Positions 3,001-6,000 of a stretch of 13,865 nucleotides of DNA are shown piece by piece. Numbering within the stretch: position 1 is the stretch's first letter; each line of letters begins with the position of its first letter. The stretch lies in UHGV virus genome UHGV-0099111; one strand, 5' to 3'. Made by a program: the position numbers. This DNA comes from a virus.

Positions 3001-6000
3001 AACGTTGATGTTGTTTGGCTTCAGCACGGCACTTCGTTAAATGGAGCGAATGATGAAGATACTCTTTCATTTGTTGGCAAATTAAAAAAAGGGTTAGTGC
3101 GCGTGGTTGGTGAGGCAATTCTTGGTGTTGATGGTGCCATCGAGATGACCGAAGAGCGCGATGGGTGGCTCAAGATTTATAGCGATGATCCAGATGCCTT
3201 TGGTCTTCGTGTGAAAGGAGACAGCATGTGGCCCAGAATAAAATCAGGAGAATATGTACTCATTGAGCCTAACACCAAAGTATTCCCGGGTGATGAGGTG
3301 TTTGTCAGAACCGTTGAAGGACACAACATGATCAAAGTTCTTGGCTATGACAGAGACGGAGAATACCAGTTTACAAGCATCAACCAGGACCATAGGCCAA
3401 TAACGTTGCCTTATCATCAAGTAGCAAAGGTGGAGTATGTGGCTGGTATTCTGAAGCAATCTCGCCATCTGGATGACATCGAGGCAAGGGAGTGGCTGAA
3501 AAGTTCGTGACTTCATCGTCACATAGCTGATAGCCAATGGCCTGAAGAGACGTTTGGGTGATAAGAGAATATCTGATAGTAGGCGTGGTTACTTTGCTCT
3601 CGGTTGTTGCGATCGTGCTTATGGTGGCCTGATGAGGTGTTTGGTTATCAGGAGTACGCATGAGGATAGGTATTGCTTTTCCGGTGATAGTGTTCATCGT
3701 GGCTGTGGCGTTTATGGCGTGGTTTGTCGTGGGTGGGTATGCGACGCCGGGTGGTTGATGAGACGTTTGGGTGAGATTGATGATGTAAGAGAGGTCGCAG
3801 AGATGCGGCCTTTTTTTTAATTGTCAAAACTCACAACCACGCACCCATGAGAATCTTTTTTTCACTCATGGCAATCATGACATTGACTCACACCACTTCT
3901 TTATGCCAGGATCATTTCAATCCAGAAAATCCTGGAAAATGATCTACTTAGGTGGAATATGCAACTTCTAACGAAAGAAAAGTTCTTTAGCTTTGTTGAG
4001 AACTACGAGCGCCTAACAGCGTCCAGTTCCAGAACAGCAGAGAATATTCAGTCGGTATGTCAACGCGTTGAGGTTTTTATACCTTCTGATTCACCTGCTG
4101 ATGCATGGGATGTACAAGGCATCGTTGATAGATATGCAGAGACCGTATCACTCAGTGAGGACAGCAAACGTTCATATAGCAGCCGCTTCAATAGCGCTGT
4201 ATCAAAGTTCATTGCTTATGAGAAAGGGGAAGATGTGAAGGCTAAGCCAAAGCCAAAGCGTCAACGTTCTGCTACAACAAAGCCTGTAGAGGAAAACTCA
4301 GTGAAGACTTTTGAATTGCCAATCCCATTGCGGGGCGATCTAATTGTCAACATTGGCAACCTACCTCGCGACCTCACAAGGGAAGAGGCAAAGCGGATCA
4401 GCAATATTATTGAGTCGTTTGCAATGTTTGACGATCTCACAAAAGAATAAAGCCCCGTTTGCAGCGGGGCTTCATAAGTGGAAGTTTTGGAAACTTCCTG
4501 AGTACAGGTTAACTGTTACCCACTAACTTAGACAATTAGAGGATAACGGTTGGCCGGGGCAAACGCAAGACTGTAAGGGATTACAGTCTGGGTTTAAATA
4601 CAGGTAAATCGTTATGATGGCACATGATGTAAATCGTGATGACTATATCTACGAACACGACAAACCGGTTTATGTGCGCAGCTACTGCCGCGTACGTTTC
4701 GGTGAACTCGAAAATGTTCGTCAGCACTTTCGTTCATATCCGAACTGCTGAGTAAGTATTGTCTAACCAGCCCGGCCTCAGCGCCGGGTTTTCTTTGCCG
4801 CACGATCCCCATCTAAAGACACATAACCAATTGTATTTATTTCAAAATTAATAGATACAACTCACTAAACATCGCAATTCAGATCTCTCGATCACCTTCC
4901 AAGCCACACCCCCCTGCAAAATATAACCCCATAAAATACAAAACGTTATAAAAAACTAATCATATTTAGAACATTTTGTATTGACTCAATAAAGTACACA
5001 TCGTACTATTTAGCCATCAGCAGGACGCACTACTCACCAGGGCGGTGAATATACAACGATTCAGAGATGAATCTACGAGGCTGAAAAGCCTAATAACCAA
5101 AGTGAACTTTGGGATGCGATGAAATGCAGCCCGTTGAGGCAAGCCGAAGATAAGCACCGGCCATTGCATCACCAAAGTTCATCAGGAGGTCACTATGACA
5201 CGCAGAACAGCTTTCAATGGCTCAGCATCAGGTCGTCGTCGTGAGCGTCGTGCAGCGCTCCAGAATGAGATTACGGCAAGCTCAGAAGTATTACACCGCC
5301 CTACTCTAAGCAGAGCGCAGATTCAGGCTAAAGGTACTCACGAAACGCCTGAGCGCATAGAAGACGCTAAGCCAATTAAGTTCATGGCACAGGACGTGAT
5401 CTGGCAACAGAAAGAATACAGACGCAATCTGGAGCGAGCGGCCATTGTGTACGCGAATGAGTTTGGACATAAGCAACCAGAAACTGGTGTATGTCTTCCA
5501 AACGTAGCCATTTACGCGGCAGGCTACCGGAAATCAAAACAACTGACGGCGAGGTGACTTGTGTTGGTCGCCAGAAGCAACGCGGAAAATCAATTCCAGC
5601 TTATTACGATTGAGGTGGTCATGCTCAAGAAAGTCAAACGCCGACTTTACAAAGAAGGTAGATATTCATGCCAGTTGCCAAAATGCGACACAACAAAATG
5701 GAGTGTCGATGATTGGTGTAACTGGATAGATAGATACGGAACTTGGTGGGATAAATAACAGGTAACTTAAGCGTATTTACTTTCGCGGCAAACCACTTAT
5801 TTGAGGTGATATATGGAAGAAGAATTTGAAGAGTTCGAAGAGCATCCGCAGGATGTGATGGAAAAATACCAGGACTATCCGTATGACTGCGACTATTGAT
5901 AAGAATCAATGGTGTGGGCAATACGAGCGGCGGCAATGATTGCCGGATGTGGCGCTTTACGCCACTGGACATCGCAGCAGAAAATCGGTTACGGCGCGTT

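What the first reader, a model, noticed from the sequence alone, without database searches (positions are those of the whole stretch)
4569..4751. Hairpin-preceded 45-aa ORF immediately upstream of the pL terminator
A perfect 9-bp stem hairpin (AGACTGTAA-GGGA-TTACAGTCT, 4569-4590) lies about 25 nt before an ATG opening a 45-aa frame rich in Arg/Tyr/Asp, which ends directly before a strong terminator. This is either a small regulatory protein or a structured RNA with a chance ORF; an 8-bp stem hairpin GGAAGTTT-TGG-AAACTTCC (4479-4497) lies upstream. The ORF is below the size cutoff of the six-frame track.
Basis: seen in the sequence. Interest (0 to 1): 0.4.

Follow-up and report, generated by a model that had tools for sequence, protein, structure and literature searches.

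The report
Small prophage gene with structured leader
The 45-codon frame is a real, strongly conserved small-protein gene of unknown function at the end of a prophage repressor operon, and the hairpins in front of it belong to a conserved, uncatalogued RNA leader that probably controls its translation.

Summary
The terminator is the immunity-operon terminator (tM/Timm) upstream of pL, not a "pL terminator".

The ORF is a genuine gene. It matches PHROG 21154 (E 3e-29). All 27 third codon positions of its core vary among 13 homologues, against 5 second positions. The family has 653 clusters at 50% identity, all named "hypothetical". The model is a four-strand beta meander with no solved-structure match.

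The 163 nt between the upstream 163-aa gene and the ORF is also a conserved structured RNA of five helices, supported by covariation: 91% of cells paired against 78% in shuffles, and 15 of 25 pairs changed on both sides. A 14-nt segment is complementary both to an upstream copy of the ribosome-binding region and to the real one. It matches no Rfam family.

The same leader precedes an unrelated Cys-rich small ORF in other phages. So leader, small ORF and terminator form a portable unit.

I infer gated translation of a small accessory effector in lysogens. The protein's function is untested.

The parts
3959..4450 (+). Upstream 163-aa gene, the frequent but not obligatory partner. It has an N-terminal five-helix domain with the fold of the core-binding (SAM-like) domain of tyrosine recombinases, a disordered K-rich linker, and a conserved C-terminal beta-beta-alpha domain. 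There is no catalytic domain.
4450..4472 (+). H1: G+C-rich hairpin overlapping the partner's stop codon. It looks like a terminator or attenuator. The T run is weak on the + strand in this window and stronger on the - strand and in relatives.
   Evidence: -16.1 kcal/mol, z -3.7. Terminator-like on the - strand. Present in all 14 homologues folded independently. Compensatory C-G to U-A change in the Yersinia locus and in L106.
4480..4498 (+).
   Evidence: Helix 1: 7 of 8 pairs changed on both sides, 94.9% of cells paired.
4507..4555 (+). H3: long hairpin. The 5' arm 4507-4518, with the preceding ACA, reads ACAGGTTAACTGTTA and copies the RBS region ACAGGTAAATCGTTA. The 3' arm 4544-4555 (TAACGGTTGGCC) is the anti-RBS segment.
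   Evidence: -18.9 kcal/mol. Inner stem is helix 2, 89.7% paired. The anti segment pairs with the upstream arm at -15.1 kcal/mol (z -4.4) and with the RBS at -11.9 kcal/mol (z -4.0) in this window. Means over 25 distinct sequences are -13.9 and -10.5.
4568..4589 (+). It sits inside the long-range anti-RBS:RBS helix.
   Evidence: Helix 4: 4 of 5 pairs changed on both sides. The outer pair is G-C in 11, C-G in 6, A-U in 4 and G-U in 1 sequences. Found by RNAalifold on a plain MAFFT alignment.
4600..4616 (+). Ribosome-binding region ACAGGTAAATCGTTATG: SD-like AGGT at 4602-4605 and ATG at 4614. It is the 3' strand of the long-range helix H5 formed with 4544-4557.
   Evidence: Helix 3: 91.5% paired, 2 pairs changed on both sides. 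RNAalifold predicts this pairing on an alignment not fitted to any structure. Freeing the RBS costs 0.1-1.8 kcal/mol in this window and mostly 2-9 kcal/mol in the 16 other leaders folded.
4614..4751 (+). 45-aa protein gene (MMAHDVNRDDYIYEHDKPVYVRSYCRVRFGELENVRQHFRSYPNC), family A, PHROG 21154.
4769..4799 (+). Intrinsic terminator of the immunity operon (tM/Timm), widely conserved among lambdoid phages.

Best explanation
Window 4450-4799 is a portable accessory ('moron') unit at the 3' end of the prophage repressor (cI) operon. It consists of a terminator-like hairpin (H1), a structured leader of about 140 nt (H2-H5), a 45-codon gene and the operon terminator.

Shown. The gene encodes a conserved small basic protein, with a disordered acidic N-terminus and a four-strand beta meander. 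It belongs to a large uncharacterised family. The leader's helices are conserved through compensatory changes.

Inferred. The unit is transcribed from upstream (pRM/pRE here) by read-through of H1. Translation is then gated by a three-part RNA switch. The protein would therefore be made at a low or conditional level in lysogens.

More speculative. The protein is a small effector that binds nucleic acid or the replication machinery and gives the lysogen an accessory trait such as exclusion of other phages. The unit occupies the slot that holds rexAB in lambda and stk in 933W.
For: Gene is real.
- PHROG 21154, E 2.8e-29 over its full length.
- Across 13 homologues the 27-codon core varies at 10, 5 and 27 first, second and third positions. 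Pairwise codon differences are 670 synonymous against 222 non-synonymous.
- The Klebsiella copy differs at 8 third positions with no amino-acid change before the last two codons.
- 29 clusters at 90% identity and 653 at 50% identity.
- AF2 pLDDT about 95 for residues 20-40.

Leader structure.
- H1, H2 and an H4-position hairpin recur in 14 independently folded homologues, z -3.3 to -7.3.
- A covariance model built from six sequences of the other leader class finds this window at 56 bits, E 5e-10.
- On the resulting alignment, 91.2% of cells pair against 77.8% in shuffles (0 of 500 reach it). 15 of 25 pairs changed on both sides against 8.6. Covariation score is 0.343 against 0.122. Slid controls pair 24-50%.
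- G-U cells number 20 against 6 A-C cells, which favours RNA on the + strand.
- RNAalifold on unfitted alignment A5 already gives H1, H2, H4 and the anti-RBS:RBS helix.

Switch.
- The anti segment is complementary to both partners in nearly all 25 distinct sequences.
- The type of SD mimic matches the type of real SD in both leader classes: GGAG with GGAG, CAGGT with CAGGT.
- The second unit in L106 repeats the mimic, anti-RBS and RBS arrangement with different bases.

Modularity.
- The same leader precedes an unrelated Cys-rich small ORF.

Slot.
- The unit lies between cI and tM/Timm, with differing cI and N alleles on either side.
- It also occurs in non-lambdoid contexts.
Against: - No transcript data exist, and no promoter-like site was found for the unit. 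H1 could simply terminate transcription.
- In this window RBS occlusion is marginal: 0.1-1.8 kcal/mol, with P(unpaired) 0.57-0.69.
- The main covariation test used an alignment fitted to the structure by the covariance model.
- The sequences fall into few clades, so independent events are fewer than the cell counts suggest.
- The match between mimic type and SD type is essentially one evolutionary event.
- No trigger for switching is identified.
- Nothing here tests the protein's activity. PADLOC, Pfam and NCBIfam give no hit for it, and the fold search gives nothing.
Confidence: 0.6

Rival explanations
1. The ORF is a real small protein that is translated constitutively. The hairpins are only mRNA stabilisers, processing sites or terminator remnants between cistrons, and there is no regulatory switch.
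For: In this window the RBS is nearly free in the ensemble: P(unpaired) 0.57-0.69, ddG 0.1-1.8 kcal/mol. Hairpin-rich intercistronic regions are common. No trigger is known.
Against: Complementarity of one segment to both the upstream arm and the RBS is kept in both leader classes with different sequences. The anti-RBS:RBS helix shows double changes. The leader is 98% identical between this window and the Klebsiella locus, while the ORF is 91% and the partner gene 61% identical. That is more constraint than a stabiliser needs.
Confidence: 0.2
2. A type I toxin-antitoxin-like module: a toxic small protein whose mRNA is held inactive by its leader and by an antisense RNA that has not been seen.
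For: A small ORF with an RBS-sequestering leader resembles hok- and tisB-type mRNAs. H1 is a good terminator on the - strand and could end an antisense transcript. The unit is insulated by terminators on both sides.
Against: The protein is hydrophilic and beta-rich, with no membrane segment. No - strand promoter lies within or just downstream of the ORF. There is no Rfam antitoxin match. Toxicity is untested.
Confidence: 0.08
3. The inverted repeats act in DNA, not RNA. They would be palindromic binding or recombination sites for the upstream CB-domain protein, and the apparent covariation would be co-evolution of half-sites.
For: The partner has a DNA-binding core-binding fold. Small-ORF cassettes are swapped behind the same element. 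Perfect palindromes fold equally well on both strands.
Against: G-U pairs outnumber A-C pairs 20 to 6, which points to RNA on the + strand. The window's H3 uses three G-U pairs. The long-range helix involves the SD and AUG. The element also occurs without the partner gene.
Confidence: 0.07
4. A structured non-coding RNA with a chance ORF.
For: The region is highly structured.
Against: Third-position-dominated divergence. The frame is conserved at 40-100% amino-acid identity in homologues whose upstream DNA does not match the leader model, such as Sakai and P2-like phages. The family has 653 clusters.
Confidence: 0.01

Closest known systems
PHROG 21154 (phage protein family, unknown function). 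NCBI names the exact protein 'MULTISPECIES: hypothetical protein [Enterobacteriaceae]'.
   Same: The window protein matches over its full length (E 2.8e-29). The exact sequence is already deposited as a called gene.
   Different: The family has no function, no Pfam or NCBIfam model and no structure. The leader RNA and the modular unit form no part of any annotation I found.
Lambda cIII mRNA alternative-structure translational control (Rfam RF01804, Lambda_thermo)
   Same: A small ORF of a lambdoid phage whose RBS accessibility is set by two alternative RNA conformations (my knowledge of that system). RF01804 itself is found in the related Sakai locus at cIII.
   Different: No sequence or structure match to the leader here. 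The operon differs, immunity rather than pL. Here the switch lies wholly in a roughly 140-nt 5' leader with a mimic, anti-RBS and RBS arrangement.
IsrK-orf45-anrP locus of the Gifsy-1 prophage (PMC4825925)
   Same: A prophage leader RNA with two conformations that hides the RBS of a short ORF also called orf45.
   Different: There the orf45 peptide sequence is not conserved. That ORF works by translational coupling to anrP and is activated by a trans-acting sRNA. Here the protein is under strong purifying selection, no gene is coupled downstream, and no sRNA is known.
Cargo genes between cI and the immunity terminator: lambda rexAB, 933W stk, mEp332 gene 04, BTP1 bstA
   Same: Same slot and orientation, ending at the homologous terminator. 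These genes are expressed from the repressor operon in lysogens (rexAB and bstA from my knowledge and the abstract of PMC8585504).
   Different: The proteins are unrelated. No defence phenotype has been tested and there is no PADLOC match.
Type I toxin mRNAs (hok/sok, tisB/istR)
   Same: A small ORF whose leader folds to occlude the RBS, within a terminator-insulated unit.
   Different: The protein is a hydrophilic beta meander, not a membrane peptide. No antisense RNA gene was found.

Membership tests
PHROG 21154 | Significant full-length match to the family profile | tested here: met
   E 2.8e-29, residues 2-45 on profile positions 1-47 of 47. The Sakai 40-aa and P2-like 31-aa relatives also match (5e-8 and 2e-10).
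Protein-coding gene, as opposed to a chance ORF | Substitutions concentrated at third codon positions, with the frame kept in diverged homologues | tested here: met
   Variable sites are 10, 5 and 27 by codon position. Differing codons are 670 synonymous against 222 non-synonymous.
Any Rfam 15 family, including Lambda_thermo, C4 and IsrK | Covariance-model match to the leader 4450-4616 | tested here: not met
   No hit at E <= 1 in the window or in three other loci that carry the leader (L001, L106, L117).
RBS-sequestering cis-regulatory leader (riboregulator) | A conserved helix that includes the SD or start codon, supported by covariation | tested here: met
   Helix 3 is 91.5% paired with 2 pairs changed on both sides. 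RNAalifold finds it on an unfitted alignment. Duplex z -4.0 in the window.
RBS-sequestering cis-regulatory leader (riboregulator) | An alternative pairing that frees the RBS, and a demonstrated effect on translation | tested here: inconclusive
   The alternative partner, the upstream mimic, is conserved, and the two states are near-isoenergetic in the window. The effect on translation cannot be tested with these tools.
Rho-independent terminator (tM/Timm) | G+C-rich stem followed by a T tract, at the position of annotated immunity terminators | tested here: met
   Homologous to the features annotated in 933W and mEp332.
Type I toxin-antitoxin | A small hydrophobic or membrane toxin | tested here: not met
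   The sequence is hydrophilic (6 Arg, 4 Asp, 3 Glu). The AF2 model is a beta meander.
Type I toxin-antitoxin | An antisense or overlapping sRNA gene with its own promoter | tested here: inconclusive
   The consensus scan finds no - strand promoter in 4476-4980. The scan is crude and there are no transcript data.
Beta-sliding-clamp-binding proteins | A C-terminal QL[SD]LF or QLxLxL-type motif | tested here: not met
   The window protein ends ...RSYPNC. 48 of 169 family representatives do carry Q[LYFM]x[LF] tails.
Known anti-phage defence systems (PADLOC 2.0) | Profile match of either gene | tested here: not met
   No hit for the small protein. The partner gives only E 0.004-0.05 noise.
Tyrosine recombinase (for the partner gene) | Core-binding domain plus a catalytic domain | tested here: not met

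The most novel reading that the evidence does not exclude
Leader, small ORF and terminator together form a previously undescribed, portable, translation-gated 'mini-effector' cassette of prophage lysogeny operons. It would comprise a new riboregulator family that controls interchangeable tiny proteins: family A, of which about a quarter of representatives carry clamp-binding-like tails, or the Cys-rich family B. These proteins would act on replication or nucleic acids to exclude competing phages or to modulate the host.
Probability: 0.2. Interest if true: 0.7.

Novelty: new member of a known kind. Interest (0 to 1): 0.5.

Why it matters
Small proteins and their leaders fall below most annotation cut-offs. 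This one belongs to a family of several hundred clusters across enterobacterial prophages and metagenomes, with no assigned function.

The leader is a conserved RNA element absent from Rfam. It travels with two unrelated small ORFs and sits in the classic lysogen-expressed cargo slot between cI and pL.

If the switch and an effector activity were confirmed, this would give a compact model for how prophages keep tiny, possibly harmful, proteins under RNA control. The clamp-binding-like tails in part of the family would also point to a new set of phage proteins aimed at the host replisome.

Tried and rejected
- Pfam, NCBIfam and PADLOC scans of the small protein gave no hits.
- Foldseek of the AF2 model against the PDB gave nothing below E 3.
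- Rfam on the window and on three other leader-bearing loci gave no match to the leader.
- IsrK/orf45 of Gifsy-1 was a lead from memory. After reading the paper I rejected it: the peptide is not conserved, the ORF is coupled to anrP, and the locus differs.
- The prophage sRNAs PasA-D, HnrS and the EcOnc set lie in late or moron regions, not the immunity region.
- The idea that the leader is specific to the CB-domain partner is rejected. The leader with a small ORF also follows an XRE plus ImmA-like gene pair, and in one context has no upstream gene.
- Homology between small-ORF families A and B is not supported: hhalign probability 1.7%.
- No promoter was found inside the leader or upstream of H1, by consensus scans and by eye.
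- The exact 15-mer scan of viral contigs was mostly chance. 42 of 66 hits were not confirmed by the model.
- The genome-contig scan with the 45-aa profile found only 2 loci.
- A column-wise test of the mimic:anti-RBS helix across both leader classes was abandoned, because the 5' arm is not in register between the classes. I used per-sequence duplex energies instead.
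Full report
**Context**

The window is the immunity region of a lambdoid prophage read in the direction of cI and N.
- A cI-type repressor lies at 2803-3510 (Peptidase_S24 plus HTH).
- A 163-aa ORF lies at 3959-4450, and the 45-aa ORF at 4614-4751.
- A terminator-like site lies at 4769-4790 with a T tract.
- A pL-like promoter lies at 4981-5009, and an N antiterminator gene at 5195-5557 (PF25694, E 3.5e-20).

The terminator sequence is shared at about 90% identity with 178 phage records and 828 complete E. coli genomes. In 933W it is annotated 'tM; putative terminator for pM transcript'. In mEp332 it is annotated 'Timm' and lies upstream of oL/pL. The finding therefore sits at the 3' end of the repressor operon. 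That is the slot that holds stk in 933W and rexAB in lambda (my knowledge). 'pL terminator' is a mislabel.

**Observation**

Both hairpins, the ORF and the terminator exist, with hairpin coordinates off by one base.

A single perfect 9-bp hairpin is not rare: shuffles of the window give 0.42 per window. The clustering is unusual. Three of the roughly six independent perfect hairpins of 8 bp or more in 13.9 kb fall within 4450-4589. The stretch 4440-4800 folds far better than shuffles, z -6.6.

**The ORF is a gene**

- It has no Pfam, NCBIfam or PADLOC hit. It matches PHROG 21154, of unknown function, at E 2.8e-29 over its full length.
- The exact sequence is deposited as 'hypothetical protein' in E. 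coli and as a multispecies Enterobacteriaceae entry. Close relatives occur in Klebsiella, Salmonella, Citrobacter, Raoultella, Enterobacter, Cedecea and Yersinia, and in Symbiopectobacterium.
- The Klebsiella copy has 8 third-position differences and no amino-acid change before the last two codons.
- Across 13 homologues, the 27-codon core varies at 10, 5 and 27 first, second and third positions. Pairwise differing codons are 670 synonymous against 222 non-synonymous.
- Profile searches find 29 clusters at 90% identity and 653 at 50% identity. Nearly all are 30-60 aa. The core motif is V-x-V-x-x-Y-x-R-x-R-x-G-x-x-E-x-V-x-x-H-x-R-S-x-P.
- AlphaFold2 with this alignment gives four short antiparallel strands at residues 18-41, with pLDDT about 95 for residues 20-40. 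The acidic N-terminal 17 residues are modelled at low confidence (pLDDT below 50 for residues 1-9), and I take them to be disordered.
- Nothing in the PDB resembles the model.
- The two Cys residues are not conserved across the family, so zinc binding is unlikely.

**Neighbourhood**

The pair occurs at constant spacing next to several different cI and N alleles. It also occurs in other contexts:
- in Klebsiella prophages, between Imm_superinfect/PerC-like genes and SSB/primase;
- next to int-xis;
- in Yersinia.

About 46 of 65 viral loci with a partner homologue carry a family-A ORF 165-200 nt downstream.

Family-A genes also occur alone. Examples are P2-like phages, after gene A and beside an AAA_13 gene, and a prophage end next to an integrase and a tRNA fragment.

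**The leader is a conserved structured RNA**

Between this window and the Klebsiella locus the 163-nt spacer is 98% identical. The ORF is 91% identical and the partner gene only 61%.

Fourteen diverged spacers were folded independently. All give H1, H2 and a hairpin at the H4 position, with z scores from -3.3 to -7.3. Many also pair the 3' side of H3 with the ribosome-binding region.

RNAalifold on plain MAFFT alignment A5 predicts H1, H2, H4 and that long-range helix, with 6 pairs changed on both sides.

I built covariance model R1 from six sequences of the other leader class, the 'GGAG' class, which excludes this window. It finds the window at 4476-4616 with 56 bits, E 5e-10. It finds all other family-A loci of the 45-aa type, but not the Sakai/Oslo type or the solitary genes.

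On the resulting alignment of 25 distinct rows:
- 91.2% of cells pair, against 77.8% in shuffles (0 of 500 reach it).
- 15 of 25 pairs changed on both sides, against 8.6 in shuffles.
- The covariation score is 0.343 against 0.122.
- Sliding the partners by 1-3 columns gives 24-50% pairing.
- H2 has 7 of 8 pairs with double changes, and H4 has 4 of 5.

That alignment is fitted to the structure, which inflates pairing. The unfitted results point the same way.

G-U cells (20) outnumber A-C cells (6), as expected for RNA on the + strand rather than a DNA palindrome. No Rfam family matches the leader.

**A probable switch**

The 14-nt segment 4544-4557 is complementary to two regions.
- It pairs with the upstream arm of H3 at -15.1 kcal/mol, z -4.4.
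- It pairs with the SD-to-AUG region 4600-4616 at -11.9 kcal/mol, z -4.0.
- The same holds in nearly all 25 distinct leaders, with means of -13.9 and -10.5 kcal/mol.

The upstream arm is a near copy of the ribosome-binding region: ACAGGTTAACTGTTA against ACAGGTAAATCGTTA. In the other leader class both are GGAG-type. The second unit in L106 keeps the same three-part arrangement with yet other bases.

Freeing the RBS costs mostly 2-9 kcal/mol in the other leaders. In this window it costs only 0.1-1.8 kcal/mol, so the two states are about isoenergetic here.

It is an inference. No trigger is known and no expression data exist.

**Modularity**

The same leader, by R1 hits, precedes a different small ORF, family B. 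This is 46-53 aa, with the pattern CxxCG...CxC and a sub-threshold treble-clef zinc-finger hit. It appears in L038-L045, L070, L117, L172 and L130/L163/L164. It also appears as a second complete unit directly after the family-A gene in L106.

Families A and B are not detectably related: hhalign probability 1.7%.

In L116, L117 and L172 the unit follows an XRE-type gene and a gene with an ImmA/IrrE-like HExxH motif, not the CB-domain gene. In L163 no upstream + strand gene is evident.

The portable entity is therefore H1, leader, small ORF and terminator. It is inserted repeatedly behind lysogeny-control operons. The CB-domain gene is a frequent neighbour, not a requirement.

**What the protein might do**

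This is untested.
- The fold is basic and beta-rich.
- The unit sits in the lysogen-expressed cargo slot.
- Its expression appears tightly insulated.
- 48 of 169 family representatives end in QLxLF or QLSFxF tails, which resemble beta-clamp-binding motifs (the resemblance is from my own knowledge).

Together these suggest a small effector that binds nucleic acid or the replisome. The window protein itself lacks that tail. I put about 0.25 on an exclusion or defence-type role.

**Verdict**

'Chance ORF' is rejected. The hairpins are meaningful, as parts of a conserved and uncatalogued leader. The gene is already annotated as hypothetical. The new points are the leader family, its probable switch, and the modular unit.

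Noticed in passing
family-wide (P0014-P0175), not in the window protein: 48 of 169 family-A representatives end in ...RSxP(G/N)QLx(L/F)xF. This C-terminal tail looks like the beta-sliding-clamp-binding motif. The window protein stops before it.
   Followed up: partly
L038-L045 about 2152-2292; L070 2219-2362; L106 2830-2985; L117 940-1089; L163 1287-1430: A second, unrelated Cys-rich small ORF family (CxxCG...CxC, 46-53 aa; sub-threshold PF23477 treble-clef hit) sits behind the same leader RNA. L106 carries both units in tandem.
   Followed up: partly
L102 1385-1417 (Symbiopectobacterium): The loop of leader helix H3 contains a roughly 30-nt copy of the small ORF's own 5' coding sequence (CATGATGTAAATCGCGACGATTTCATCTA).
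   Followed up: no
window 3660-3758 and 3787-3816: A 32-aa hydrophobic ORF (MRIGIAFPVIVFIVAVAFMAWFVVGGYATPGG) followed by a + strand terminator lies between cI and the 163-aa gene. The gene at the same position in L008 is flagged PF28021 YoaK in precomputed hits, but my own Pfam scan found nothing. The terminator means the 163-aa gene may need its own promoter, which the scan did not find.
   Followed up: partly
window 3959-4450: The 163-aa protein is a stand-alone tyrosine-recombinase core-binding-domain fold with a conserved beta-beta-alpha C-terminal domain (VKTFELPIPLRGDLIVNIGNLPRDLTREEAKRIS). Every homologue is named 'hypothetical'.
   Followed up: partly
window 6148-6250: A weak rsmX-like Rfam hit (31 bits against a gathering score of 56, E 0.011) ends in a strong terminator hairpin. 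It is probably driven by the terminator.
   Followed up: no
L116, L117 and L172, upstream of the leader: The leader and small-ORF unit follows a 116-aa XRE-type HTH gene and a 163-aa gene with an ImmA/IrrE-like HExxH motif. This is another kind of lysogeny-control operon.
   Followed up: no
L002 2408-2569 (VT2-Sakai): The RefSeq record annotates a GeneMark ORF (VT2-Sap22) on the opposite strand. It overlaps the conserved 40-aa family-A homologue at 2471-2593, which is not annotated in that record. This is a probable mis-annotation.
   Followed up: no
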